The notes: generated by a model not told the origin, from the letters alone. Counted from the stretch's first letter, positions 7,041 to 34,982 are shown. The stretch: 64,000 nt of DNA from Candidatus Thorarchaeota archaeon (GCA_048884965.1 JBHLQH010000010.1:22718-86717), one strand, 5' to 3'. Numbers and translations are program-made.

Positions 7041-8788
7041 TATGTACTTCCTCCTTCAGCCTGTGCCGGAGTACAGAGATATGCCTCAACCATGGCGAGA
7101 ATCTGCTCATCCGTGGAATGAAGCATCACAATAGCACTACTCGGACATCCACCAGCACATGTCCCACATCCATGACACTTTGCCTCAGTTACAAATGCAA
7201 CTGCAGTATCAGCAGTCTTATCGATAGCAATTGCTCCGTAAGGACAAGCTGACACACACGTGTAACAAGTCGAACAAAGCTCTGGCAGCACCTGAGCGAC
7301 TGTTGATTCAATCTCGACCTCTCCACGGGCCATCAAACCAACGGCCTTTGCAGCTGCACCACTTGCGTCAATCGCAGCCTCATGAGCATTCTTGGCTGCC
7401 TGAGCAGCTCCAGCGATCATGATACCTGCTGTGTGAGTAGTTAGTGGTGCAAGCTTGATGTGCTCCGGATTGAAGAACCCATCCCCACTTCTTGTAAGAC
7501 TGAAGAGCTTTCCAGTTTCTTCAATGTCAGAAGGAGGAACCATTGCGGATGCCAATACGAGAAGATCTGGCTTGAACTCAAGCTCATCCTCTGAGAGGAC
7601 ATCGAACCACCGCACGAATACTTGTCCATCCTGCACTGTGACAATAGGTTTCTGTTCAGGCGGGAATTTACTATATATGACATTCCTGCTACGTGCAAGC
7701 CGATGCAACTCTTCATGACCTCTGCCATAAGTTCTGATATCCTGATAGAGCACCAGTACCTCTTCACTTCTTTGTCTCAGATCAGAAGCGGCCTTAGCAA
7801 CCGCAGAACAACAGTGACGTGAACAATGTTCATGGCCTTTGATCCCTGCCTCGCGAGATCCAACACAGCCAATGAAGGCTATCTTCTTCACAGGTTTACC
7901 ATTGCTTGGTCGGAAGAGTTCATACCTTCGTGGCATCTCTTGCAACTCTGCAAGTGTGACAATATCTGGAGAAGTTCCGTAGCCATAGTAGCCCTTTGGT
8001 TTGAAGGGTTCAAATCCTGATGCTACAACAACAGCTCCAACTTTGTATTTTCGCTCACTACCTGTAGGATTATTCCTGATGACCACATCAAAGTTGCCAA
8101 TATAGCCCTCAAAGCATACAACTTTACTGTCCCTGAGGACCTCAACGCGATCGTGCCGCATGATGCGTTCAACCATTGGCTCTATGACCTGTTCTCCAAT
8201 TTGATCTGCGGGGAAGAGGTGAGTCCATTTCGCGACGGCGCCACCTAGCACTTTCTCCTTCTCCACAAGCACTACATCGAATCCTCGATCAGCTATATCA
8301 AGAGCTGCAGTAAGTCCCGCAATACCTGCTCCAACGACCAGTGTCCTAGGAGTGACTGCTACTTTCTTGATAGGTAATGCATCCAGCTTTGCCGATCGAG
8401 CCACAGACATCTTGATTAGATCAATCGCTTTCTCAGTGGCTTTCTCAGGTTGTCGCATGTGACACCAGGATACATGTTCCCGGAGGTTGACCTGATCGAA
8501 CAGATACCTGTTCAGTCCAGCCTCTTCGACCACTCTCCTGAAGGTGGGCTCATGCATTCGTGGGGAGCAACTTGCTACGACGACGCGATTCAATTTGTGC
8601 TCCTTTATCTTCTTACGAATGAGCTCTTGTCCACTGTCGGCACACATGAACATCTCGTGAGTTGCGAAGATGACATGCGGCATTGATTTTGATTCCTCGG
8701 CGACTCGCTTAACATCAACGACTCCAGCGATGTTGTGGCCACAGTGGCAGACGAATACACCAATTCGTGGAGTTTCATTATCGCTCAT
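7040..8788 (-). CDS. hdrA: Heterodisulfide reductase subunit A-like protein (N-terminal domain, FAD domain and C-terminal 2x[4Fe-4S]; no inserted ferredoxin)
   Basis: RIGVFVCHCGHNIAG, VVASCSPRMHE, VNLREHVSW, GAGIAG, CVGSR..CSRHCC, and C-terminal CSTCYTCVSACP / CHGCGTCAGGCP. Confidence 0.9.
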   Translation of the reverse strand: MSDNETPRIGVFVCHCGHNIAGVVDVKRVAEESKSMPHVIFATHEMFMCADSGQELIRKKIKEHKLNRVVVASCSPRMHEPTFRRVVEEAGLNRYLFDQVNLREHVSWCHMRQPEKATEKAIDLIKMSVARSAKLDALPIKKVAVTPRTLVVGAGIAGLTAALDIADRGFDVVLVEKEKVLGGAVAKWTHLFPADQIGEQVIEPMVERIMRHDRVEVLRDSKVVCFEGYIGNFDVVIRNNPTGSERKYKVGAVVVASGFEPFKPKGYYGYGTSPDIVTLAELQEMPRRYELFRPSNGKPVKKIAFIGCVGSREAGIKGHEHCSRHCCSAVAKAASDLRQRSEEVLVLYQDIRTYGRGHEELHRLARSRNVIYSKFPPEQKPIVTVQDGQVFVRWFDVLSEDELEFKPDLLVLASAMVPPSDIEETGKLFSLTRSGDGFFNPEHIKLAPLTTHTAGIMIAGAAQAAKNAHEAAIDASGAAAKAVGLMARGEVEIESTVAQVLPELCSTCYTCVSACPYGAIAIDKTADTAVAFVTEAKCHGCGTCAGGCPSSAIVMLHSTDEQILAMVEAYLCTPAQAEGGST

Positions 8789-10122
8789 TATTGTGCACCT
8801 GCCTTTGAAAGAATGATTGTAGCTCGCATAGCGGCTGCACTTCCAGCCGTAACTGAATCAGGGATGTCCTTTGGTCCATCAGCACACCCACAAGTGAATA
8901 CTCCAGGAACAGGAGTTGAAACAGGGGCTGCAAATGTATCTAGGATATCCAAGTAGCCATCTTCGGATTGTTTCAGTTTCAGGACCTTTGCGATGGTGCT
9001 AAGACCCTCAGGTGGTTGCAATCCGGGGCATATGACAAGCATGTCATGCTCTACCTCTGTAAGTTTAGCTGTTTCGATGTCCTCTACTTCTACGATGAGG
9101 TTGTGGTTATTCTGATCCTCAGTGACTTCTCCCACGCGACCTTTCACAAAATGGACACCAAAGCGAGTCTTTGCCATCTCATAGAATTCCTCGAAACCCT
9201 TGCCAAAGGCTCTGATATCAGCGTAGTAAATTGTAACTTTTGCCTCTGGGTCGTGCTCGCGAGCCATCACGGCATTCTTTACACCATACATGCAACATAC
9301 GCGGCTGCAATAGGGTACGCCCTTGTTCACATCGCGGGCTCCGACGCACTGAATGAAACCTAGGTCCTTTGGCATTCGTCCATCACTCATCCGAATGAGG
9401 TGACCATGAGTAGGACCTGCAGCATTGATGAGGCGCTCATACTCCATAGCGTTCACGACATTCTGATAGCGGCCATATCCAAGTCGAGGATATACTGAAA
9501 CATCAAAGAGCTTGTAACCAGTGGCTACAACAATAGCGCCGACATTGAGTTGGACTACTTTGTCCTTCATCTCATAGTCGATAGCACCTCGAGAACATTC
9601 CCGAGCGCATCGATTGCAGTTGATGCATGTTTCCATATCGATAGTGTAGACAGCTGGAGTAGCCTGGGGGAAGGGGAGATAGATAGCCTTCCGGAATCCA
9701 AGCTTCTCTTCAAACTCAGCTGGAACCTCTACTGGACAGACTTGAGCACATTCGCCACAACCTGAGCATTTGTCTTCATGGATGTATCTAGCCTTTCTTC
9801 GTACCTTGACCGTGAAGTTACCCTCATGGCCTGTTGCTTCCTCTACCTCTGAGTAGGTTAGGAGTTCGATGTTTGGATGGCGTGCGACTTCACTCAGCTT
9901 TGGAGTAAGGATACATGCCGAGCAGTCAAGAGTTGGAAAGGTCTTGTCTATCGCAGCCATTCGGCCTCCAATTGAAGGAGTCTTTTCCACTAGATACACC
10001 TTGAATCCCTGACTCGCGATATCCAATGCAGCTTGCATCCCTGCGACGCCGCCACCGATCACGAGAGCGTTATCTGAAACATAGCGTTCCATTCTACTAA
10101 CATAATCTGCACTTTGGGTCAT
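8788..10122 (-). CDS. hdrA: Heterodisulfide reductase subunit A-like protein (FAD domain with inserted ferredoxin; no N-terminal domain or C-terminal ferredoxin)
   Basis: GGGVAG, KTFPTLDCSACILTPK, CSGCGECAQVCP, CINCNRCAREC, QCVGAR..CSRVCC and GPKDIPDSV. Confidence 0.9.
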   Translation of the reverse strand: MTQSADYVSRMERYVSDNALVIGGGVAGMQAALDIASQGFKVYLVEKTPSIGGRMAAIDKTFPTLDCSACILTPKLSEVARHPNIELLTYSEVEEATGHEGNFTVKVRRKARYIHEDKCSGCGECAQVCPVEVPAEFEEKLGFRKAIYLPFPQATPAVYTIDMETCINCNRCARECSRGAIDYEMKDKVVQLNVGAIVVATGYKLFDVSVYPRLGYGRYQNVVNAMEYERLINAAGPTHGHLIRMSDGRMPKDLGFIQCVGARDVNKGVPYCSRVCCMYGVKNAVMAREHDPEAKVTIYYADIRAFGKGFEEFYEMAKTRFGVHFVKGRVGEVTEDQNNHNLIVEVEDIETAKLTEVEHDMLVICPGLQPPEGLSTIAKVLKLKQSEDGYLDILDTFAAPVSTPVPGVFTCGCADGPKDIPDSVTAGSAAAMRATIILSKAGAQ

Positions 10123-10994
10123 TGCTTGACCTCCTGTAATGATTCCATAATATGTGTTGGACTTATCTTGTTCAACTCGAAGCCAAGAGATTCATCATCA
10201 AGACCTAGAGCAGGACCAAGGAATTGCGGGATTGTGATAACAGGAAGCTTGTTCTTCCCGGCATCATCACCAAACTGAACCTGTGTCAATTGAATATCAC
10301 AGAAAACACAAGCTGTAACAATACCATCAGCACCAGCAGCTACAGCGTTATCGATCTTCTGACGACCAATAGAGGTTGCGATGCTCTCGCTCATAGCAAG
10401 CATTGGACCTCCACAGCAACGAGTCTTTCCTGTATAGTCAATAGCAGTGGCTCCAACTGCCTCTACCAGACGATCAAGAATAGTAGGAGATTCGGGGTCG
10501 TCGACCTGTACAATTTCATACGGACGGGTGACATGGCAGCCATAGTGGGCAGCCATCTTTATCCCCTCGTAGGGTCTCACAACCGCTCTCTCGATCTTAT
10601 CGATGCCAATGTCTTCATGAAGTACTTGTAGAAGATGACGGACTCTTGCCTTTCCTGTATATTTCAAGCCTTCCTCAGCAAGCAAAGAGTTCACTTCATC
10701 TCTAAGCTTGTAATCATTGTCAAGGTGATACTTGTTTATCTTCAGTGATCCTGAACAGGCTCCACAGATTGCAAGGATATCATGACCTTCTCTTTCAGCC
10801 AATGCCAATATTCTTCCACTCATAGCTGCGAAGGCGCTCTTAGATAGAGACTCTACATATTGTGCGCCACAGCAATTCGTGTCATTGAACTCAATAGGAT
10901 TGACTCCGAGCTTCTTGAGAACGGCAATGGTTGAGGCTTCATATGATGGAAGCCGCACGGGAGTTGTGCATCCGCGATAGAGTAGAAGATCCAC
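10119..10994 (-). CDS. hdrB: Heterodisulfide reductase subunit B
   Basis: Two CCG domains: YRGC..NCCGA..CGAC and HYGCH..RCCGG..ACVFC. Confidence 0.93.
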   Translation of the reverse strand: MDLLLYRGCTTPVRLPSYEASTIAVLKKLGVNPIEFNDTNCCGAQYVESLSKSAFAAMSGRILALAEREGHDILAICGACSGSLKINKYHLDNDYKLRDEVNSLLAEEGLKYTGKARVRHLLQVLHEDIGIDKIERAVVRPYEGIKMAAHYGCHVTRPYEIVQVDDPESPTILDRLVEAVGATAIDYTGKTRCCGGPMLAMSESIATSIGRQKIDNAVAAGADGIVTACVFCDIQLTQVQFGDDAGKNKLPVITIPQFLGPALGLDDESLGFELNKISPTHIMESLQEVKQ

Positions 10995-11501
10995 CTATGC
11001 CTCAACCTCCTTCTCCTTTGCAAAGTATCTCTGCTTAACACGTTTAACGAATTCATCATTCATCTCGAGGTCAATCTCAAGTCCGAGATCATCTCGTTCA
11101 TCCTCAATGAAATCTGAATATGCATCCTTGAGAAGCCATCCGTCTTCTAGAACGGTGTGAAGTGTGCTCTTGAAGACATTCGGAATGTGCCCTTCACGGG
11201 CAGCGATGAATCGAACAGCGTGAAAGATTTCTGCAGGACTGACGCCTTCCTGGCAATTTTCCTCACACATTCTGCATGTCATGCAAAACCAAGGTTCTTC
11301 ACTACGAAGAACCTCCTCCCGCTTACCGATGAGAATCTTCTGAATAATCTTTCGAGGTCTATATTTATCAGAGGCTCGCGCAACCATACAACTAGCTGTA
11401 CATATTCCGCATTGAATACATTTGTTGATGGCTTCGCCTCCAGGAACAGAAGCTACTTCTTGCGCGAACTCCGAAGACGGAGTATGTATTTCACTTACCA
11501 T
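10995..11501 (-). CDS. hdrC: Heterodisulfide reductase subunit C
   Basis: CIQCGICTASC and WFCMTCRMCEENC [4Fe-4S] motifs. ATG at 11501 chosen because AGGTGA (RBS) lies just upstream. Confidence 0.92.
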   Translation of the reverse strand: MVSEIHTPSSEFAQEVASVPGGEAINKCIQCGICTASCMVARASDKYRPRKIIQKILIGKREEVLRSEEPWFCMTCRMCEENCQEGVSPAEIFHAVRFIAAREGHIPNVFKSTLHTVLEDGWLLKDAYSDFIEDERDDLGLEIDLEMNDEFVKRVKQRYFAKEKEVEA

Positions 11502-11713
11502 AAAGGTCACCTAGGCGAGTTTTTTTGGGAGATGGGCTCTGTTATAGAAAATAGGCGTCGTATCTATTCTCTATTACAAGGTAACCTTTGAGAAAACGAT
11601 TATATCCTTGCCGTAAGGGAACTTCGTTTATTATTGCGGTTTTCGTGTCTGGAAACGGACATGAATCCTATTCCCTGTAGCTAAAATGGACAAAAATAAG
11701 CATATGATAAAAA

Positions 11714-13249
11714 TCACTCTGGTTGAACGCGAGGAATCGTTATTCTGAACCGGTTAATTGCCTCACCTGCAGGATGCTCATAGAAAAGGCGTCCATTGAA
11801 AAGTTCGATGATCGAACGCGCTACAAATATATCAAAATCGATACGCGTACTGAGCATGATAGATTTCAAATGAAGATAGTCCTGCACATCCGATGTTAGA
11901 GGTATACCGGGGCATTCAATTGTTAAGGTTGCAGTATCACCATTCAGTTCACACTTGATTAGGAAAGACAGATCATCTGAGTTGCGAGTCTTGATAACAA
12001 ACGAGATGATACTAAGGATAGCAATAGCAAGCATATCATTAGCATACAGTCGTGGATTGTCGCTAATTTCAAGATGAACCTTGAAATCCTGAGGGTTGAG
12101 AAGGAATGCAGCATGATCCATTGCGCTTGAAAGGATGATTGCCAAAGGAGTGGGTTCGAAGGTTGAGAATCGAGAATCTAATATTTGTGATAGTTTTGAA
12201 ACTTGAAGATTCAAGAGAGTAGCCTCGCGACTCAGCACCTTCGCTGAAACTTGAACATCCTCCAGCTCAGGATCTTCTGTGGGGTATTCCCCGAGAAGAT
12301 CAAGATAGACAATCATAGCTTGAAGGATATTTCCCATCTTATGAGTCCACATGCCCAAATAGAATTCGCTCTCAGCCTTCGAATCCTGAAGCTGTCGTGT
12401 TCTACGTGCAACGGTTTCTTCAAGGATCTTTCTGGGCTCAAAAATCGCAGACACACTCATTCCCAGCGTGATGATCACGAAACCAGTTGTGAATGCACCT
12501 AGCCACACAACCTCAGCAAGTTGATACGGATTTTCCAGTAGAACGATAATAATCTCGCCGTATATCCAAAAACCGAGTGCTATGCATGAAACCATGATCA
12601 CACGATCTCTAGACTTGATCCATTCGTATGCATACTTCACAAGAGACGTCAGCATTGTAATAGCGATGACCAAGACAAGAACCAGAGCTATAGGAGACAA
12701 TCCAGCCACTCCTCCACCCGGAGAAGTTACCGTGAATACGGGTTCTGGACTGAACAAGAACCAAAAACCCAGAAAGGGAATAACACCAACACCCCAAAGG
12801 AGCGAAAGAAATCCAGATCTTCTTGTAACTGTTGAATCGCCAAGGAAAGAACCAGCAAGCATACTTGGAAAAATTGAGAGTCCCATCGCGATCATGAGTG
12901 TGCGATTTCTATTTCTATCTGCAAAAGGTAGCCATCCAGTGAAGATTGGATGAGAAACCACATAGGTCATTCCTAGAATAATGATATCAAAAACCATCAA
13001 CAGAATAACTAGATTTCGAACCTGACGGTTTTGGTAGAAGTGCACCATTGAATGTGTGAAGATCATGCTACTAGATGCAAGAATTGCTGAGATGAGTAAT
13101 GGAATGGCAGTTGCAATCACAGGAGGTGTTGTAAGAATCCATATCTGACCGGTTATGGTCACTGCTGCGAGATAGAACCATACATAGCATGAGAGGACAA
13201 TAATCAGTATGTCAGTCCACCGATACATGTTTCCAGTCTCATGTTTCAC
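11714..13249 (-). CDS. Multi-TM sensor histidine-kinase-like protein with degenerate HATPase domain
   Basis: About 8 TM helices, LEETVARRTRQL signalling helix and H-box-like GMWTHKMGNILQ. N/G1/G2 boxes are not recognisable, but the terminal LFNGRLFYE..NRFRITIP strands are retained. Confidence 0.75.
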   Translation of the reverse strand: MKHETGNMYRWTDILIIVLSCYVWFYLAAVTITGQIWILTTPPVIATAIPLLISAILASSSMIFTHSMVHFYQNRQVRNLVILLMVFDIIILGMTYVVSHPIFTGWLPFADRNRNRTLMIAMGLSIFPSMLAGSFLGDSTVTRRSGFLSLLWGVGVIPFLGFWFLFSPEPVFTVTSPGGGVAGLSPIALVLVLVIAITMLTSLVKYAYEWIKSRDRVIMVSCIALGFWIYGEIIIVLLENPYQLAEVVWLGAFTTGFVIITLGMSVSAIFEPRKILEETVARRTRQLQDSKAESEFYLGMWTHKMGNILQAMIVYLDLLGEYPTEDPELEDVQVSAKVLSREATLLNLQVSKLSQILDSRFSTFEPTPLAIILSSAMDHAAFLLNPQDFKVHLEISDNPRLYANDMLAIAILSIISFVIKTRNSDDLSFLIKCELNGDTATLTIECPGIPLTSDVQDYLHLKSIMLSTRIDFDIFVARSIIELFNGRLFYEHPAGEAINRFRITIPRVQPE

Positions 13250-13313
13250 TAAGCAGCACCCCAGCGAATATGTATAGGATTCATCTTGTATATTATAAAG
13301 TAGTGTGTACCTC

Positions 13314-15062
13314 CTACCTTTGAGATGAAGTCATGAGTAATCGCATTACGCCCATCCTGATGTCCTCCTCTGAAAGGAATCCAGTTAGCTCTTCATCACC
13401 GATATGTATGGTTGGCAACGCAGGAAGATCATCTTCTGACACGCCAGCCGTCGGATCATCAATATTTATGATATTAAGTGATGATCGCCCAATACCTAGC
13501 TCATCAAGAACTGTTGTAAGAGTATCAAGTACTGGACCACAGAAGACGCAGTGATCGGATTTATAGAAGTCAATGATAGGTAGCTCTAGTTCCTCTTGCC
13601 ATCGTGGGATAATGACCACGAATTTACTCCCCTTCGAAGGGTCACCCTTCACTCTATCCTCGACCCAGATTCTACCACCTAAATGTCGTATATACCTGTC
13701 TGCGACTGTGAGCCCAAGCCCTTTCCCCATATGTCTAGCATCATCTTCAGGAGTTCGTCTGAATACCTTCTGTTTCATATCGTCAGATATTCCCGGTCCC
13801 GAGTCCAAGAATTCCACTTTGATCTCTCTACCATAATCCTGTGCTTCAGCTTGAACCTTGATGGACACCTTTTCTTTCATATCATAGGTCATAGAGTTGT
13901 GCAGTATGTTGAAGAAGACGTTATGCAAGAATGCATGACCTACAACCTCCATGTTGTCATCATCCAATTTGGACTCATACTCTAGCTTCTTACCTTCAAA
14001 ATCTCGTTGCACTTCGATATATGCCCGTTTCAGGTGAGGAGCCAATTTCGTTTTCATTGTAGTTGGGGGAGCTCTGTCCAGACTCAAGAGGACACCCATG
14101 TTGACAATAAGTCGAGCAGCACGTCTGAGGTTCCAAGAGGCATCTCGTACCAATGCTACTTCTCTCGGAGGCAGTTCTACTGACACCTTGAGATCCTCTA
14201 ACGCAAAGATAACACTTTGAAGGATGATGTTGAGATCACTCGTCATAAGGTCGAAATAGAGATTTGCTCGTTCGCTCTCTTCACGAAGCTTCTGCTCAGC
14301 ACGTCTCCTTCGAGTGATATCAACAGCTGTTAGTCCGATCTCGTTAGGTGTTGCACTCTCAGGGTTAAGAGTCCTAGCGGATATGCTTGCCCACAACGAT
14401 TTCCCTGAGCAGTGATCCATTTCCAGCTCGATTCCACTGACGCTCTTTCCACGCATGACTTCTCCGACAATATCGCCTCCGGGGTCGAACGCCCCCGTAT
14501 CCGTAGATGTCTTGAAGAATGATGTAATTGGATGTCCTAAAATATTATCGGCATCACATCCGAGTAAGATCTCAGATGCCTCATTAACCTGTGTGACAAT
14601 CCCGTCAGCATTGAGGGTGAAGTATGCAACAGGAGAGAAATCATAGAGGGAAGCGAATCTCTGTTCCAATTGCATGACAGCTTCCTGTAACGCAATTTGA
14701 CCTGAAATATCCTGTACTGCGGCAACTATTGCAGGATTCCCACCTATCTCGATAACACGGGGATTGACCTCTACATGGAATGTCCTGCCAGTCTTTGATT
14801 TCATTCGAGTCGTGAACTTCTCATGTTGCGCTCCATCTAGAAGAGCATCAATATGGTTCTGATGCTGCCTTTTTGCCACGGGATCTAAGAGGTCCTCAAA
14901 TTCCATGTCCAGCAGGTCATCTTCAGCATATTCCAATAGGTCTGCAAAGACTCTGTTCACTTGAATAATCTCTTCATCCTGAATTACAATCATTCCTTCA
15001 TGAACGACGTCCATCAGTTGCTTGAGCAGATCCTTAACGGTTTTCAGGTCGGACATACACAA
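13314..15062 (-). CDS. PAS-PAS histidine-kinase-like protein lacking the H-box His, with C-terminal thioredoxin-like CxxC domain
   Basis: Two PAS domains ending VQDISG and AVDITRR; N-box NVFFNILHNS, G1 DSGPGI, G2 GKGLGL; H-box region DLMTSDLN; C-terminal FYKSDHCVFC..ALPTIHIG. Confidence 0.85.
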   Translation of the reverse strand: MCMSDLKTVKDLLKQLMDVVHEGMIVIQDEEIIQVNRVFADLLEYAEDDLLDMEFEDLLDPVAKRQHQNHIDALLDGAQHEKFTTRMKSKTGRTFHVEVNPRVIEIGGNPAIVAAVQDISGQIALQEAVMQLEQRFASLYDFSPVAYFTLNADGIVTQVNEASEILLGCDADNILGHPITSFFKTSTDTGAFDPGGDIVGEVMRGKSVSGIELEMDHCSGKSLWASISARTLNPESATPNEIGLTAVDITRRRRAEQKLREESERANLYFDLMTSDLNIILQSVIFALEDLKVSVELPPREVALVRDASWNLRRAARLIVNMGVLLSLDRAPPTTMKTKLAPHLKRAYIEVQRDFEGKKLEYESKLDDDNMEVVGHAFLHNVFFNILHNSMTYDMKEKVSIKVQAEAQDYGREIKVEFLDSGPGISDDMKQKVFRRTPEDDARHMGKGLGLTVADRYIRHLGGRIWVEDRVKGDPSKGSKFVVIIPRWQEELELPIIDFYKSDHCVFCGPVLDTLTTVLDELGIGRSSLNIINIDDPTAGVSEDDLPALPTIHIGDEELTGFLSEEDIRMGVMRLLMTSSQR

Positions 15063-15314: not shown

Positions 15315-17702
15315 CTAGTTTCCACCTGTCAGAGAATACTCCTTTATCTTTGATGCCATCTCAGAGAGTCGAGCATCTACCAGTTGAAAGATTGTTCCTT
15401 TCTCAAATGAACCATCTTCTTTCCTTTTGCCAGCTTTGACCCCGGTTAAGATTTCAATGCCTTCCTCAATTGTGGAAACTGGATAGATATGGAACAAACC
15501 CTCTTTTGCTGCCTCTACTATCTCTTCCTTGAGCATTAGATTCTGCACGTTGCTTATAGGTATAATAACAGCTTGTTCTCCAGTAAGTCCACGCGCCTTA
15601 CAGACTTCAAAGAATCCTTCTATCTTTTCGTTTACTCCTCCGATAGCCTGCACTTGTCCATTTTGGTCTACAGAGCCTGTAACTGCGAAGTTTTGCTTTA
15701 TGGGAATCCCAGAGAGAACAGAGAGGAGTGCATACAGCTCTGTACTTGAGGCGCTATCCCCATCCACACCAGAATAGCTCTGCTCAAAGACCAATCTAGC
15801 TGTCAGACTCAAAGGTTTGTCTTGAGCAAAGATCTTGGATAGATATCCAGCGATTATCATGACACCTTTAGTATGGATGCTACCTCCGAGATTTGACTCT
15901 CGTTCAATATCAACTAATCCTTGTCTCCCTACTGCAACGCTCGCTGTTACTCTCGACGGGCCACCAAAACTGAAGTCACCATATTGCATTACGGAGAGAC
16001 CATTAACTTGCCCAACCTGACTTCCTTCTGTTTCAATCCGAATAACGCCTCGTGTGATATACTCACGTAATCGTTGTTGGATTAGATTTGATCGGTATAT
16101 CTTCTCTTCAATTGCTTTCTTCACATGCTCAGCTGAAACATGGGGTGTGTCTTCCTGCGAAGCATAGAACGTAGCTTCCCTGATGATATCAGCAACATCC
16201 GCAAATTGAGTGGAGAGCTTCTCCTGATCATCAGCCAGTCGAGAGCTGAACTCAATTACTTTTGCTGCAGCCTTTACGTCAAGATGCTTCAATCCTTCTC
16301 GGCCACATACATTTGCCATAGCACCTGCGTATTTCCGAACATTGTCATCAGTCCAGTCCATTTCAGTATCAAAATGGGCTTTAACCTTGAATAGCTCCTT
16401 AAAGTCCGGATCTTGGGAATAAAGCAACTGATAGGTCATGGTATCTCCAAGAAGGATAACTTTCACCCTTAATGGAATAGGCTCTGGTTTCAAGCTCTTT
16501 GCTGAGATAGGACCGCCTGGCAGCAGCATATCTTCAATCTCAATAGCTTCGTTCTTGAGAGCCCGTTTTAGACTCTCATATGAGCCGGGAGACTTTGCTA
16601 ATTCGATGACAGGAATCATCAAATAACCTCCATTTGCCTTGTGAAGACTTCCAGGTTTGATCAGGGTAAAATCGGTAGTTAATACCCCAAAACGAACCTC
16701 CTTCTCAATCCGACCAAATAGGTTGGAGTATGTGGGATTCAGCTCAACCATTACAGGAGCGCCTTGCGTTTTGCCATCACTCACCATGACATTGACCTGA
16801 TAGCGTGTGAAGAACTGGTCTATTACAGCCGCAGCCTCTGCAGACTCTGGATTCTTGGCTTCAATGAAGGTTCCAAGATTCTCTAATATACTATGTTCTA
16901 CATCATCAATATGCTTTGTTGCCTCATCGATTCCCTTGTAGAGGTCTCTCATATCAGAGATCATATCTCCAATTGCATAGAGAGCCATGTCCTTATTCAA
17001 CTGGTCTAGACGCTCATTTACATCGCTTTCCAATTTCCTCAATTGACGCATTGCTTTTCTAAGATCTGCATCTATCTCTGAACGTGCTTTGTTAATTTGG
17101 TCAATCATCTCAGGACTCAATGTTCCGATCTGTTCTTCTGTAAGCGGAACACCCTCCACAACGGGAATGACCAAAAGTCCTGCTTGGGTACCACGCAAGA
17201 TGAAACCTTTTTTCTCAGCTTTCTTACTCACTTCCTCGAATAATGCCTTTCGCTCTGCTTCTACCTGTTGTGTCGTTGCTTGTCTTCGAGTTATATAATC
17301 CTCACTCTCAAAGACCTCGGGAATAATCTGCCTTGCAGTATCTATAAGCACACCAAGTTCCTTCTTGAATTTCTCAGCCATTCCAGAAGGTAGCTCAATG
17401 GCATTTGGTTCTGAAGGATTCACAAAATTGTAGACATAGCACCAATCTGAAGGTGGGTCACGGCCCTCAGCCAAGTCCTTTAGAAACGCACTAACAGTGG
17501 TTGATTTTCCTGTCCCAGGAGCTCCTGCTGCGTAGACATTGAATCCCTTCTCCCGAATCTCGAGACCAAAACTTAGTGCTCGTAGTGCTCGATCCTGCCC
17601 AATGATATCATCATTTGGTTCAAGATCCTTGGTTGTCTTACATCCCATTATACTAGGTTTGCAAAATCGGCGATATTTCGATACTGATAGTTCCTTCACC
17701 AA
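15315..17702 (-). CDS. Lon-like (LonC-type) S16 protease
   Basis: IIGQDRA, GAPGTGKS, DWCYVYNF, coiled-coil insert, IKPGSLHKANGGYL, catalytic Ser in VDGDSASS and Lys in IGGVNEKIEGF. Confidence 0.9.
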   Translation of the reverse strand: MVKELSVSKYRRFCKPSIMGCKTTKDLEPNDDIIGQDRALRALSFGLEIREKGFNVYAAGAPGTGKSTTVSAFLKDLAEGRDPPSDWCYVYNFVNPSEPNAIELPSGMAEKFKKELGVLIDTARQIIPEVFESEDYITRRQATTQQVEAERKALFEEVSKKAEKKGFILRGTQAGLLVIPVVEGVPLTEEQIGTLSPEMIDQINKARSEIDADLRKAMRQLRKLESDVNERLDQLNKDMALYAIGDMISDMRDLYKGIDEATKHIDDVEHSILENLGTFIEAKNPESAEAAAVIDQFFTRYQVNVMVSDGKTQGAPVMVELNPTYSNLFGRIEKEVRFGVLTTDFTLIKPGSLHKANGGYLMIPVIELAKSPGSYESLKRALKNEAIEIEDMLLPGGPISAKSLKPEPIPLRVKVILLGDTMTYQLLYSQDPDFKELFKVKAHFDTEMDWTDDNVRKYAGAMANVCGREGLKHLDVKAAAKVIEFSSRLADDQEKLSTQFADVADIIREATFYASQEDTPHVSAEHVKKAIEEKIYRSNLIQQRLREYITRGVIRIETEGSQVGQVNGLSVMQYGDFSFGGPSRVTASVAVGRQGLVDIERESNLGGSIHTKGVMIIAGYLSKIFAQDKPLSLTARLVFEQSYSGVDGDSASSTELYALLSVLSGIPIKQNFAVTGSVDQNGQVQAIGGVNEKIEGFFEVCKARGLTGEQAVIIPISNVQNLMLKEEIVEAAKEGLFHIYPVSTIEEGIEILTGVKAGKRKEDGSFEKGTIFQLVDARLSEMASKIKEYSLTGGN

Positions 17703-32702: not shown

Positions 32703-34982
32703 TCAAATCACATTTTCGATTGAAGGAAGAATCATAGAGATCATGACTTGTATCAAATCTACGTCTGTTTGAATTTGACTTGTCAAGAGTGAGCCTTTGA
32801 TTTGCTGGACAATAAGTCGAGCTACCTGGAAACCAAGGGTGGCCTCGATATAACCGATAGGGCTTGGACCAATCTTCTTACTGAACTCATCAGAATCTAC
32901 CATTGAGAACGGTATCTCAATTGAAACATTCCAATATGGGGTTCCTCGATTCATCTCAGAATCTATGGAGAGGGCCAGTTCTCGTCGATACGATGGGATC
33001 TCGAGGGCAACATACAAGAGATTGAGTACTGCTCCAAAGAGGAGCTCATTGGCCATGACAAAAGATCTATTCTCCGAGGGCCTAAAACGAATAAGGGTGT
33101 CTGGTCTTCGGGCACTATGCGTCACAATGTCAAGGGCACTAACTACGGTAGCAATGAGATTAGTTGGTTGTACTGGACGTTCAGCCCAGTTGTCGCTCTC
33201 ATTCATTAGGCGAACATTCTCGATGAGTTGCTCAGTAAGAGAAACTGCGGTTCGTGCATCAGATAACAAACGTTCTTGGTCCATAGAAGTGTGATCTTTT
33301 GAAGAAAGAAGCTCGAGTGTTGTAAGGGTCATCTGGTTGTAGTTGGTGATGTCATGCATGAGAAGATCAGCATAAAGCCTAGCTCGCATATGAGATACTC
33401 CTACATCACGAGCTGCACTGATGTATAGAGCCACTAAAATAGAAGGACCAACCAAGAGACTACCGAAGAGGAAAATCTCAGAAACCCACCAGCCTGGAGT
33501 AAAGTAATCGTAGAAACTTTTCAATGTGATAGGAACAATCCAAGAGGCGAGGAAACCAACGACATACATCTCAAAGGAGGGCTTGCCTTTACTCAAATTG
33601 GCAAGGAGAAGCAGAAGATATGCATAACCGATGAATACAAAGTAATTGCAGACCAACAACAATCCATTTCCTAGGAGTCCAGATTGCAATATAGGGTAAA
33701 TCCTGATAATCAACTGATTTGTGACTTCTCCAATATAAACAGCAGAAGCATAGAATATCGAATAGATGAATAGATTGAGAAATGAGAAGAAACTAGATTC
33801 CTCATTGTTCTGACCTCGAAGGCTTTTCTGAACCTTATAGAGAAGCTGTAGCGTTAAAACCCCACCAATAAGATATGGCACGGTTGGTTCACCAGCCACT
33901 ATTGTGCCAAATACAAAGAGAGAGAATGTCGATGCCAAAGTGACAGCTGACCATACTACAAAAACAAGAACCAAATAGAAATGAATCAATGAAGGTTTCA
34001 ATCTCGAGTAAGCGAAGAGCAAGATAGCCATTATCGCTGATAGAATGCTAGCTCCAAAGTGAATTATCGAGTATGCAAGGAAATTCCCTACTTCGAAAGG
34101 ATCTGTCAGACCAACTGATTCTATAATTGTCGTTATCAATAGTGGTAGATACGCAGTCAAAGCTAAAGAGATGATAATAAGATAGCGCGTAAGTCTGGTG
34201 TAGGAATGTTTCCGAAGGTATGGCATGCCAAAGGTGATGCCATAGAGAAAGAGAGCAGCTATCAGAAGATTCTCCGCGAAAATCCAAGAATCAGAGTTGG
34301 TCAGGAAAGCATTGATAGTTATTGCAGAAGCAATCGATATGAGGATAGATGCTCCGGTTAAATATCCTCGATCCAAGGAAAAATGATCACATCTCTTCCA
34401 GCATATAATTGGCTGAAGAAGAAAACTCCCACAGATTATGGCAGCTAATGTTACTGGCAATACTCCATCAACAGATACAACAAGTAGAGGCTCAATGAAG
34501 AAGTAGGCAAGACCATAGAGTGATACTGGAACTGAAAGCAGGATCGAGAGGAACATCCAGGATTGCTTTCTTGTTGCAATCTCAAAACCCCTATTGCCTG
34601 ATAGAAATCCTAGCAATAGAAAAATACCTGTCAAGCATAGCTCGATCAAAGTCACGAAATGATCTTTTGGACCAACAGCCATCACCTCTTGAGACAAAAT
34701 TAGGAATGCCAATGCGTGGTCTATCTTTGAGAACACATAGAATAGAAAAGCAACTAAAAAGAAGCATCTCGATATGGATTTCCTATCTTGGGTGTTGATG
34801 AGCAGTACTACAGCAGAAATAGATGCCCAATAGGCAAGAATAGAGTGAACAGCTAGACGTGTCCGATAGGAGAGGGAAACAATTCCTGCTCCACTGAGGG
34901 CAAAATAGGTGGATATTATTGCTAGTGGTACGAGGAGGAGAACCTTGAAGATATCTCTTCTATTACCCACTAACATCTTCAA
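32703..34982 (-). CDS. Large polytopic sensor histidine-kinase-like protein with degenerate HATPase domain
   Basis: About 14 TM helices and a canonical archaeal-type H-box RARLYADLLMHDITNYNQ; no DxGxG or GxGLG boxes. Confidence 0.75.
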   Translation of the reverse strand: MKMLVGNRRDIFKVLLLVPLAIISTYFALSGAGIVSLSYRTRLAVHSILAYWASISAVVLLINTQDRKSISRCFFLVAFLFYVFSKIDHALAFLILSQEVMAVGPKDHFVTLIELCLTGIFLLLGFLSGNRGFEIATRKQSWMFLSILLSVPVSLYGLAYFFIEPLLVVSVDGVLPVTLAAIICGSFLLQPIICWKRCDHFSLDRGYLTGASILISIASAITINAFLTNSDSWIFAENLLIAALFLYGITFGMPYLRKHSYTRLTRYLIIISLALTAYLPLLITTIIESVGLTDPFEVGNFLAYSIIHFGASILSAIMAILLFAYSRLKPSLIHFYLVLVFVVWSAVTLASTFSLFVFGTIVAGEPTVPYLIGGVLTLQLLYKVQKSLRGQNNEESSFFSFLNLFIYSIFYASAVYIGEVTNQLIIRIYPILQSGLLGNGLLLVCNYFVFIGYAYLLLLLANLSKGKPSFEMYVVGFLASWIVPITLKSFYDYFTPGWWVSEIFLFGSLLVGPSILVALYISAARDVGVSHMRARLYADLLMHDITNYNQMTLTTLELLSSKDHTSMDQERLLSDARTAVSLTEQLIENVRLMNESDNWAERPVQPTNLIATVVSALDIVTHSARRPDTLIRFRPSENRSFVMANELLFGAVLNLLYVALEIPSYRRELALSIDSEMNRGTPYWNVSIEIPFSMVDSDEFSKKIGPSPIGYIEATLGFQVARLIVQQIKGSLLTSQIQTDVDLIQVMISMILPSIENVI

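What the first reader, a model, noticed from the sequence alone, without database searches (positions are those of the whole stretch)
11714..15062. Putative split histidine kinase: adjacent genes with complementary defects
Seen: the cytoplasmic PAS-PAS protein (13314-15062) has intact N, G1 and G2 ATP-binding boxes, but its H-box reads RANLYFDLMTSDLN, with Ser where the paralogue at 32.7-35 kb has His (RARLYADLLMHDITN). The co-directional neighbour (11714-13249), a membrane receptor, keeps a His at that position (ESEFYLGMWTHKMGN) but its HATPase boxes are eroded (SIISFV, CPGIPL, RIDFDIF). Established: HisKA domains dimerise and many kinases phosphorylate in trans. Inference: the two may form a heterodimer in which one supplies catalysis and the other the phospho-acceptor and membrane input, acting as an AND gate. 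No response regulator is present in the window.
Basis: partly seen in the sequence, partly recalled or inferred. Interest (0 to 1): 0.8.

Follow-up and report, generated by a model that had tools for sequence, protein, structure and literature searches.

The report
Two neighbouring half-dead histidine kinase relatives
Two adjacent genes of a Thorarchaeota (Asgard) genome encode sensor-kinase relatives with opposite defects, one lacking the phospho-histidine and the other the ATP site, but each defect is older than the neighbourhood and the genes are adjacent in only part of one genus, so an obligate two-gene kinase is possible but unlikely.

Summary
PAS582 (13314-15062, minus strand) is PAS-PAS-DHp-HATPase_c plus a CxxC thioredoxin-like tail. 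It has Ser275 where all intact paralogues have the H-box His, and its N, G1 and G2 boxes are intact. MEM511 (11714-13249, minus strand, downstream) is a MASE3-like membrane domain plus a DHp with invariant His303 and a kinase-fold domain that has lost N, G1 and G2.

The split-kinase reading is only weakly supported.
- All 120 database orthologues of PAS582 lack the His. The loss happened once, in a clade found in 11 genera.
- MEM511 lies next to PAS582 in only 5 of the 6 genomes of one genus. The sixth has Lon-PAS-HdrCBA with no remnant of MEM511.
- 19 MEM-family loci in other genomes have no kinase gene next to them.
- In MEM511 the acidic general base beside the His is Lys. Across the family this change tracks loss of the ATP site, which argues against ATP-driven phosphorylation of this His. 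The His and the Asn at H+4 are invariant.
- The two DHp domains are only 20% identical.

Most likely these are two independently evolved pseudo-kinases with other partners. This scan has noted a similar complementary pair on other DNA (a Nitrospirota genome). FasB/FasC of Streptococcus is the closest published precedent.

The parts
13314..15062 (-). PAS582: cytoplasmic PAS-PAS-DHp-HATPase_c-thioredoxin-like protein without the phospho-acceptor His. The database gene call starts at ATG 15056, giving 580 aa.
   Evidence: ORF; Pfam; 120 orthologues at 50% identity or more
14703..15029 (-). PAS domain 1 (aa 12-120)
   Evidence: Pfam PAS_9, PAS and PAS_8
14301..14636 (-). PAS domain 2 (aa 143-254)
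   Evidence: Pfam PAS_4
14070..14312 (-). DHp helical hairpin of PAS582 (aa about 251-331)
   Evidence: AlphaFold model, helices 2-45 and 50-81, pLDDT 80-87; VIA-align Z 15-19 to histidine kinases and DivL
14238..14240 (-). Ser275 codon at the H-box His position
   Evidence: Orthologues carry S97, N14, T5, Q4 here and never His.
13602..13931 (-). HATPase_c (CA) domain of PAS582 with intact N, G1, F and G2 boxes
   Evidence: Pfam E 1.5e-16; PDB alignments to HK853; motif counts
13317..13580 (-). Thioredoxin-like tail with CxxC (Cys505, Cys508) and a cis-Pro motif
   Evidence: Best PDB sequence hits are thioredoxins (E 0.064), with CxxC and cis-Pro aligned. Model topology is beta-alpha-beta then beta-beta-alpha. 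Both Cys and the Pro are conserved in 120 of 120.
13286..13306 (-). TATA-like box (CTTTATAATATAC) in the PAS582-MEM511 spacer; possible separate promoter for MEM511
   Evidence: Similar A/T box just after the PAS stop codon in G146 and G164. Inference only.
11714..13249 (-). MEM511: membrane (MASE3-like) - DHp - degenerate CA pseudo-kinase. The database gene call starts at ATG 13228, giving 504 aa.
   Evidence: ORF; orthologue alignment A1; profile search
12425..13228 (-). Multi-helix membrane domain, about 7-8 transmembrane helices
   Evidence: AlphaFold helices. Family members P0185, P0177 and P0182 hit Pfam MASE3, and P0185 is above the cut-off. MEM511 itself is not hit.
12173..12391 (-). 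DHp hairpin of MEM511 with the invariant motif ESEFYLGMW[TS]HKMGN[IL]LQ
12341..12343 (-). His303 codon (H296 in the 504-aa numbering). It is followed by Lys304 where kinases have Asp or Glu, and Asn307 lies at H+4.
11729..12145 (-). CA-like alpha/beta domain without N-box Asn, G1 Asp or G2 glycines
   Evidence: fold match to kinase CA domains; no Pfam hit

Best explanation
These are two separately evolved, kinase-derived pseudo-enzymes that became neighbours only within one Thorarchaeota genus. They are not an ancestral or obligate two-gene kinase.

PAS582 belongs to an old clade of cytoplasmic PAS-PAS-DHp-CA proteins with a thioredoxin-like tail. The clade lost the phospho-acceptor His once, after duplication of a His-bearing kinase with the same tail. 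That sister copy is still present in nearly every genome of the family. PAS582 keeps an ATP pocket and an invariant CxxC. I infer that it signals without phospho-His, as an ATP- and redox-responsive regulator. It may act on its His-bearing sister or on a response regulator, in the manner of DivL or RetS.

MEM511 descends from genuine MASE3-type membrane kinases. It lost ATP binding and then changed the catalytic acid next to the His to Lys, while keeping the His and the Asn at H+4. I infer that it is a membrane sensor that exchanges phosphate with, or dephosphorylates, receiver domains in the manner of Spo0B or ChpT, or that it acts as a scaffold. It is probably not an acceptor for ATP-driven phosphorylation by its neighbour.
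For: Shown:
- The His position in 120 orthologues is S97, N14, T5, Q4.
- The His-less sequences form a single clade nested among His-bearing Trx-tailed kinases.
- The His-less copy was verified in genera g1, g2, g3, g5, g8, g9, g11, g13, g14, g15 and g16. The His-bearing copy (MTHDLNNVNQ) is present alongside it.
- CxxC and cis-Pro are conserved in 120 of 120. The Mg-binding Asn is kept in 10 of these 11 genera and lost in g9 and in one g2 genome.
- MEM511 is adjacent to PAS582 only in G000, G146, G164, G227 and G248. G206 has PAS followed directly by HdrC. There is no MEM remnant in G206, G182, G143 or G215.
- The MEM family was found in only 35 of 76 genomes of the family.
- 19 MEM-family loci in other genomes have no adjacent kinase gene and, apart from one weak partial match, no receiver.
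- Across 46 MEM-family representatives, His and Asn at H+4 are invariant. Of the 7 that keep the Mg-Asn, 6 have Asp or Glu at H+1. Of the 39 that lost it, 31 have Lys or Arg at H+1.
- Distant family members hit HATPase_c and MASE3, whereas the MEM511 clade does not.
- DHp identity between PAS582 and MEM511 is 20%. PAS582 against its His-bearing paralogue is 35%, the highest in the genome.

Established knowledge: the acidic residue next to the His is the general base for autophosphorylation, and His plus a polar residue at H+4 act in the phosphatase reaction (PMC7005713).
Against: - Adjacency, shared orientation and a short spacer are kept in five species-level genomes and probably in seven more metagenome contigs (matching contig lengths). 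This is more than chance alone would normally give.
- PAS582 is the only protein in this genome with an intact ATP site and no His, while at least four proteins have a His and a dead ATP site. That pattern invites a trans model.
- Most His-less orthologues keep ATP-binding residues, so ATP use of some kind is under selection, and no substrate has been identified.
- The roles proposed for each protein are inferences from motifs. No interaction or activity was tested.
Confidence: 0.55

Rival explanations
1. Split kinase, the first reader's model, restricted to this genus. PAS582 and MEM511 associate through their DHp domains. The CA domain of PAS582 phosphorylates His303 of MEM511 in trans, so that a cytoplasmic PAS or redox input and a membrane input are both needed.
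For: - The complementary lesions are real and each is conserved.
- The genes are adjacent and co-oriented in 5 of 6 genomes of the genus.
- PAS582 keeps N, G1 and G2.
- Single-chain relatives with MASE3-PAS-PAS-DHp-CA exist (P0183).
- There is a published precedent: FasB/FasC form a heterodimer in which FasC is a pseudokinase carrying the acceptor His (PMC12675982).
Against: - His loss in PAS582 long predates the neighbourhood, and the clade persists without MEM511 in at least 10 other genera and in G206.
- About half of the family's genomes show no MEM-family member.
- MEM511 has Lys at H+1 instead of the general base (PMC7005713).
- The DHp domains are 20% identical.
- No response regulator lies in the locus.
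- A TATA-like box in the spacer suggests separate transcription.
- P0183 resembles PAS582 only generically, at 21% identity.
Confidence: 0.2
2. PAS582 is an active ATP-dependent enzyme that phosphorylates a residue other than the H-box His. This could be a Ser, Thr or Tyr on itself, on its thioredoxin-like tail or on another protein, as in histidine-kinase-fold Ser kinases. MEM511 would be unrelated to it functionally.
For: - ATP-binding motifs are retained in 10 of 11 genera despite an ancient His loss.
- The CA fold matches include PDK2 and BCKDK, which are kinase-fold Ser kinases (Z 15.5-16.2).
- Ser or Thr occupies the former His position in 102 of 120 orthologues.
Against: - The former His position also carries Asn, Gln, Lys or Arg in some genera, so it is not a conserved acceptor.
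- The whole genus g9 replaced the Mg-binding Asn with Tyr or Phe and still keeps the gene. The core function therefore survives without canonical ATP-Mg binding.
- No substrate is indicated.
Confidence: 0.15
3. Chance neighbourhood with a decaying gene. MEM511 is a recently inserted duplicate on its way to loss and has no specific function.
For: - It is restricted to one genus and evolves faster than PAS582: 44-60% against 65-78% identity in the same genome pairs.
- Its catalytic motifs are lost.
Against: - The reading frames are intact in all orthologues.
- The 17-residue motif around the His is near-invariant, and there are many invariant positions in both the membrane and the CA-like domains.
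- The wider family has about 50 clusters, all keeping the His.
Confidence: 0.07

Closest known systems
FasB/FasC of Streptococcus pyogenes (PMC12675982)
   Same: Two adjacent kinase-like genes. One supplies the kinase domain. The other (FasC) is proposed to be a pseudokinase whose DHp His is the phosphorylated site. Heterodimerisation rather than homodimerisation was seen in a two-hybrid assay.
   Different: - The Fas locus includes its response regulator FasA; here there is no regulator.
- Both Fas proteins are membrane kinases; here the two are unrelated in architecture.
- The lesions here arose independently and long before adjacency.
- The acceptor candidate here has Lys instead of the catalytic acid.
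- No interaction data exist here.
DivL of Caulobacter (His replaced by Tyr; PDB 4q20; PMC4211667)
   Same: A PAS-containing DHp-CA protein whose phospho-acceptor His is replaced, with the replacement conserved. It acts as a regulator rather than a kinase. The PAS582 model aligns to DivL with Z 18.8 over 221 residues at rmsd 4.8, tied with true kinases.
   Different: PAS582 has Ser, Asn, Thr or Gln rather than Tyr. It is cytoplasmic, carries a thioredoxin-like CxxC tail, and keeps canonical ATP-binding boxes in most genera. No partner is known.
RetS-GacS multikinase pair of Pseudomonas aeruginosa (PMC8498467)
   Same: One kinase-like protein modulates another through DHp contacts. RetS DHp-CA structures are among the top structural matches of the MEM511 model (6dk8, TM-score by target 0.64).
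   Different: RetS and GacS are not adjacent genes and both keep a His. The interaction is inhibitory, not complementary.
Spo0B and ChpT histidine phosphotransferases (from my own knowledge, not checked in a paper here)
   Same: A DHp-type four-helix bundle carrying the His, plus a CA-like alpha/beta domain that no longer binds ATP. They shuttle phosphate between receiver domains.
   Different: They are soluble and lack a sensor domain, whereas MEM511 has a MASE3-like membrane domain. Neither was among the listed structural matches. No receiver partner is identified.
Non-enzymatic kinase-like proteins of archaea (PMC5847659) and Asgard pseudo-kinases (PMC10343646)
   Same: The archaeal census notes HisKA proteins without a working ATPase, whose His may still accept or transfer phosphate or support phosphatase activity. 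An Asgard kinase lacking the catalytic His is mentioned in passing.
   Different: Those census proteins lack the ATPase domain altogether, whereas MEM511 keeps the fold with eroded motifs. Neither paper, searched for these terms, mentions a thioredoxin-tailed His-less clade.

Membership tests
Class I sensor histidine kinase (DHp + HATPase_c): PAS582 | Phospho-acceptor His in the H box | tested here: not met
   Ser275. None of 120 orthologues has His.
Class I sensor histidine kinase (DHp + HATPase_c): PAS582 | ATP-binding N, G1 and G2 boxes and the Bergerat fold | tested here: met
   Pfam HATPase_c E 1.5e-16; motifs; fold Z 15-19 to kinase structures.
Class I sensor histidine kinase (DHp + HATPase_c): MEM511 | Phospho-acceptor His in a DHp hairpin | tested here: met
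   His303 is invariant in 46 of 46. The model has the hairpin. The adjacent acid is replaced by Lys.
Class I sensor histidine kinase (DHp + HATPase_c): MEM511 | ATP-binding N, G1 and G2 boxes | tested here: not met
   N-box Asn residues are Ser and Phe; G1 Asp and G2 glycines are lost. No Pfam HATPase_c hit. The fold is retained.
Two-gene (heteromeric) histidine kinase, FasB/FasC type | Adjacent co-oriented genes with complementary lesions | tested here: met
Two-gene (heteromeric) histidine kinase, FasB/FasC type | The pair is co-conserved wherever the defective partner occurs | tested here: not met
   Adjacent in 5 of 6 genomes of genus g1 only. The His-less clade occurs without the neighbour in at least 10 other genera.
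Two-gene (heteromeric) histidine kinase, FasB/FasC type | Physical heterodimer and trans-phosphorylation of the acceptor His | not testable with these tools
   No multimer prediction or assay was available. Indirect evidence is unfavourable: 20% DHp identity and Lys at H+1.
Two-gene (heteromeric) histidine kinase, FasB/FasC type | Cognate response regulator in the locus | tested here: not met
   No receiver domain in the 64-kb window. The genome has 11 elsewhere.
His-less pseudo-histidine kinase (DivL-like) | DHp-CA fold with the His replaced, and the replacement conserved among orthologues | tested here: met
His-less pseudo-histidine kinase (DivL-like) | Acts by binding a response regulator or another kinase | not testable with these tools
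   No interaction data.
Spo0B/ChpT-type histidine phosphotransferase (MEM511) | DHp with a conserved His plus a CA-like domain unable to bind ATP | tested here: met
Spo0B/ChpT-type histidine phosphotransferase (MEM511) | Phosphate exchange with receiver domains | not testable with these tools
   No receiver gene lies beside it here. One weak partial match was seen beside related loci.
Thioredoxin fold (tail of PAS582) | CxxC at the start of helix 1, a cis-Pro loop, and beta-alpha-beta plus beta-beta-alpha topology | tested here: met
   Thioredoxins are the only PDB sequence hits, but weak (E 0.064), with both motifs aligned. Model topology agrees. Invariant in 120 of 120. No Pfam hit. The structural search list did not reach the tail.
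MASE3 membrane sensor domain (MEM511) | Match to Pfam PF17159 | tested here: inconclusive
   MEM511 itself has no hit. Family members P0185 (33.4 bits, cut-off 31), P0177 and P0182 (30.6-30.8 bits) do, and they are linked to MEM511 by the profile search.

The most novel reading that the evidence does not exclude
In this Thorarchaeota genus an ancient, ATP-competent but His-less kinase with a redox-active thioredoxin tail has recruited a MASE3-type membrane pseudo-kinase as its phospho-acceptor subunit. This would be the first two-gene histidine kinase in archaea, combining cytoplasmic PAS or redox input with membrane input. More broadly, the His-less Trx-tailed clade would be a new class of redox-coupled kinases that act in trans and serve the several His-bearing, ATP-dead kinase relatives in these genomes.
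Probability: 0.15. Interest if true: 0.65.

Novelty: new variant of a known kind. Interest (0 to 1): 0.4.

Why it matters
Pseudo-histidine kinases and kinase heteromers are an emerging theme in bacterial signalling (DivL, RetS-GacS, FasB/FasC), but they are almost unexplored in archaea.

This locus yields two well-defined families:
- A Thorarchaeota-wide kinase relative that lacks the His, mostly keeps its ATP site, and has an invariant thioredoxin-like CxxC tail. It is paired in nearly every genome with a His-bearing sister copy.
- A MASE3-type membrane family caught at successive stages of losing catalysis while keeping the His.

The second family gives a natural series for asking what a DHp His does once ATP chemistry is gone. 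The genus-restricted adjacency gives a clean test of whether complementary pseudo-kinases really team up. If they do not, the locus is a useful caution that complementary defects in neighbouring genes need not mean a split enzyme.

Tried and rejected
Neighbourhoods were taken from the genome search and the fetch from genomes instead.
- Pfam on the thioredoxin-like tail alone and on the 759-aa protein gave nothing.
- A PDB sequence search with the MEM511 C-terminal half gave only a chance ribosomal hit.
- The wide structural search of the PAS582 C-terminal model was filled by kinase matches and did not reach the tail. The thioredoxin fold therefore rests on weak sequence hits, invariant motifs and model topology.
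- Rosetta-stone idea: single-chain MASE3-PAS-PAS-DHp-CA proteins exist (P0183, P0185). However, P0183 is only 21% identical to PAS582, so I did not count this as specific support.
- I looked for relics of MEM511 between PAS and Hdr in G206, G182, G143 and G215 and found none.
- I considered the invariant His343 of PAS582 as an alternative acceptor. It lies at the start of the CA domain, not in the DHp, and I did not pursue it.
- I considered that loss of the Mg-binding Asn in 95 of 120 orthologues shows general decay of the ATP site. I rejected this as a sampling effect of one genus, g9.
- The bacterial promoter scanner was not used because the organism is an archaeon.
No multimer prediction is offered.
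Full report
**What is there**

The region holds two co-oriented minus-strand genes between an archaeal Lon protease gene (15315-17702) and hdrC/B/A (11510-8788). The genome is a 4.09-Mb Thorarchaeota assembly: sources name the orthologues 'Candidatus Thorarchaeota archaeon'. It has about 30 HATPase_c matches and 11 receiver domains. No receiver domain lies in the window.

**PAS582 (13314-15062)**

Pfam finds two PAS domains and a near full-length HATPase_c (E 1.5e-16) but no HisKA.

I aligned the protein with the genome's own kinases. The local H-box consensus is F-Y-x-D-L-L-x-H-D-L-x-N-x-x-Q. PAS582 reads LYFDLMTSDLNIILQ: Ser275 replaces the His, and Ile replaces the Asn at H+4. The N box (FFNILHNS), G1 (LDSGPGIS) and G2 (GKGLGL) are canonical.

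An AlphaFold model of residues 250-582 (pLDDT 83) shows three parts:
- a DHp hairpin;
- a CA domain;
- a C-terminal beta-alpha-beta, beta-beta-alpha unit.

The DHp-CA part aligns to histidine kinases and to the pseudokinase DivL at Z 15-19.

The only PDB sequence hits of the tail are thioredoxins. They are weak (E 0.064), but the CxxC and the cis-Pro are aligned.

**MEM511 (11714-13249)**

Pfam finds nothing significant. The AlphaFold model (pLDDT 71) has 7-8 membrane helices, a DHp hairpin and an alpha/beta domain. Foldseek matches the C-terminal half to DHp-CA kinase structures (RetS, ZraS, HK853, CpxA) with probability 1.0 and TM-score by target of 0.55-0.64.

The H-box reads WTHKMGNILQ with His303. 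Both N-box Asn residues, the G1 Asp and the G2 glycines are gone.

One detail needs correcting. The 'paralogue' at 32703-34982 is not a PAS582 paralogue. It is a third membrane kinase relative with a His and a dead ATP site.

**History of PAS582**

A database search returned 120 orthologues at 50% identity or more, almost all 560-610 aa. At the His position they carry Ser 97, Asn 14, Thr 5 and Gln 4, and never His. The CxxC cysteines and the cis-Pro are invariant in all 120.

A whole-genome search of 301 Asgard genomes found Trx-tailed kinases in 67 of 76 genomes of the family, usually two per genome. Reading the fetched copies shows two paralogue groups:
- Group A is His-less. I verified it in genera g1, g2, g3, g5, g8, g9, g11, g13, g14, g15 and g16.
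- Group B keeps MTHDLNNVNQ and all ATP boxes. In this genome it is C10:1847-3247.

In a tree rooted with tail-less kinases, the His-less sequences form one clade nested among His-bearing ones. This indicates a single ancient loss after duplication.

The Mg-binding Asn is Tyr, Phe or His in 95 of the 120 database orthologues. By genus, however, it is lost only in the heavily sampled g9 and in one g2 genome, and it is kept in the other ten genera.

**History of MEM511**

True orthologues (39-79% identity over the C-terminal region) are few. They share the near-invariant motif ESEFYLGMW[TS]HKMGN[IL]LQ.

A profile search over 1.8 billion representatives gave two tiers of hits:
- about 54 clusters with E below 1e-30, most of them full-length relatives;
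- ordinary kinases matched through the DHp-CA region, with 1250 hits at E of 0.001 or better.

Across 46 family representatives the His and the Asn at H+4 are invariant. Distant members keep the N box, DxGxP and GLGLGL, and they hit Pfam HATPase_c and MASE3. The MEM511 clade hits neither.

The residue after the His tracks the state of the ATP site:
- Of the 7 members that keep the Mg-Asn, 6 have Asp or Glu at H+1.
- Of the 39 members that lost it, 31 have Lys or Arg and 8 still have Glu.

These sequences are related, so this is a pattern and not a statistical test. The acidic neighbour of the His is the general base for ATP-dependent autophosphorylation. His together with a polar residue at H+4 acts in the phosphatase reaction (PMC7005713). 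MEM511 therefore looks adapted to phosphotransfer or phosphatase chemistry, or to scaffolding. It does not look adapted to accept phosphate from ATP.

**Is the pair conserved?**

Matching coordinates from the two genome searches shows adjacency only in G000, G146, G164, G227 and G248, all in genus g1.

Other findings on gene order:
- G206, the basal member of the genus in the tree, has Lon, PAS, HdrC, HdrB, HdrA in a row with no MEM511. Its best MEM-family hit is 32% identical and on another contig.
- In genera g14 and g16 the PAS582 orthologue also neighbours hdrCBA, again without a MEM gene.
- No MEM remnant was found in any of these gaps.
- In 19 loci holding MEM-family members in other genomes, none has an adjacent kinase gene.
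- Only 35 of 76 genomes of the family show any MEM-family member with this query.

Within the genome, the DHp of PAS582 is 20% identical to that of MEM511, which ranks 18th of 31. It is 35% identical to its His-bearing paralogue, which ranks first.

The spacer between the two genes carries a TATA-like box that recurs in G146 and G164. This is consistent with a separate promoter, but it is only an inference.

**Reading**

The complementary defects are genuine and each is maintained by selection. However, they arose independently and long before the genes became neighbours. The neighbourhood is a genus-level novelty, and the acceptor candidate lacks the catalytic acid.

I therefore favour two independent pseudo-kinases with other partners (confidence 0.55). 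A genus-specific split kinase remains possible (0.2). Three points speak for it: the arrangement is kept in five genomes, PAS582 is the only protein in the genome with an intact ATP site and no His, and FasB/FasC provide a precedent (PMC12675982).

A third option is that PAS582 uses ATP on a non-His substrate (0.15).

The scan has recorded a similar complementary pair in a Nitrospirota genome. The idea is therefore not unique to this locus.

**Limits**

- No multimer prediction, expression data or biochemistry was available.
- Genus and family labels are anonymous handles.
- Many of the genomes are incomplete, so an absence means 'not found in those searched'.

Noticed in passing
window 13317-13580 (-); G000 C10:1847-3247: The thioredoxin-like CxxC tail is shared by both paralogue groups, the His-less and the His-bearing one. 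It is invariant (both Cys and the cis-Pro) in 120 of 120 His-less orthologues. A kinase with a C-terminal thioredoxin fold seems to be a signature of this Thorarchaeota family.
   Followed up: partly
window 8788-11510 and loci L002, L003, L005, L006: PAS582 orthologues lie next to hdrC-hdrB-hdrA-hdrA2 in three genera (g1, g14, g16), on either side of the operon. In G143 an MvhD-like ORF lies between them. This hints at a link between the redox-tailed pseudo-kinase and heterodisulfide reductase.
   Followed up: partly
window 32703-34982 (-): The 759-aa membrane protein keeps a canonical H box (LLMHDITNYNQ) but has lost the second N-box Asn, G1 and G2, and has no Pfam hit. Its closest in-genome relatives (C1:113991, C22:48610, C67:3754) are intact kinases with the same kind of membrane domain. 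It is a third His-bearing, ATP-dead kinase relative.
   Followed up: partly
G000 C13:23580-25097, C53:5256-6944, C31:375-2681: The genome holds further kinase relatives at different stages of decay. One is a MEM511 paralogue with HK.GN and a dead ATP site. Another has a His but an eroded N box and G1. A third has lost both the His (Arg instead) and the ATP site.
   Followed up: partly
window 13286-13306 (-); L007 and L074 spacers: An A/T-rich TATA-like element (CTTTATAATATAC) lies directly after the PAS582 stop codon. Similar boxes occur at the same place in two other genomes of the genus.
   Followed up: partly
loci L004, L008, L023-L025 and places: The His-less and His-bearing Trx-tailed paralogues lie about 18-20 kb apart on the same contig in many g9 genomes, and 33 kb apart in this genome. 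This looks like conserved long-range synteny of the paralogue pair.
   Followed up: no
window 15056 and 13228: Database gene calls start PAS582 at ATG 15056 (580 aa) and MEM511 at ATG 13228 (504 aa). These are shorter than the mechanical ORFs, which start at TTG 15062 and GTG 13249.
   Followed up: partly
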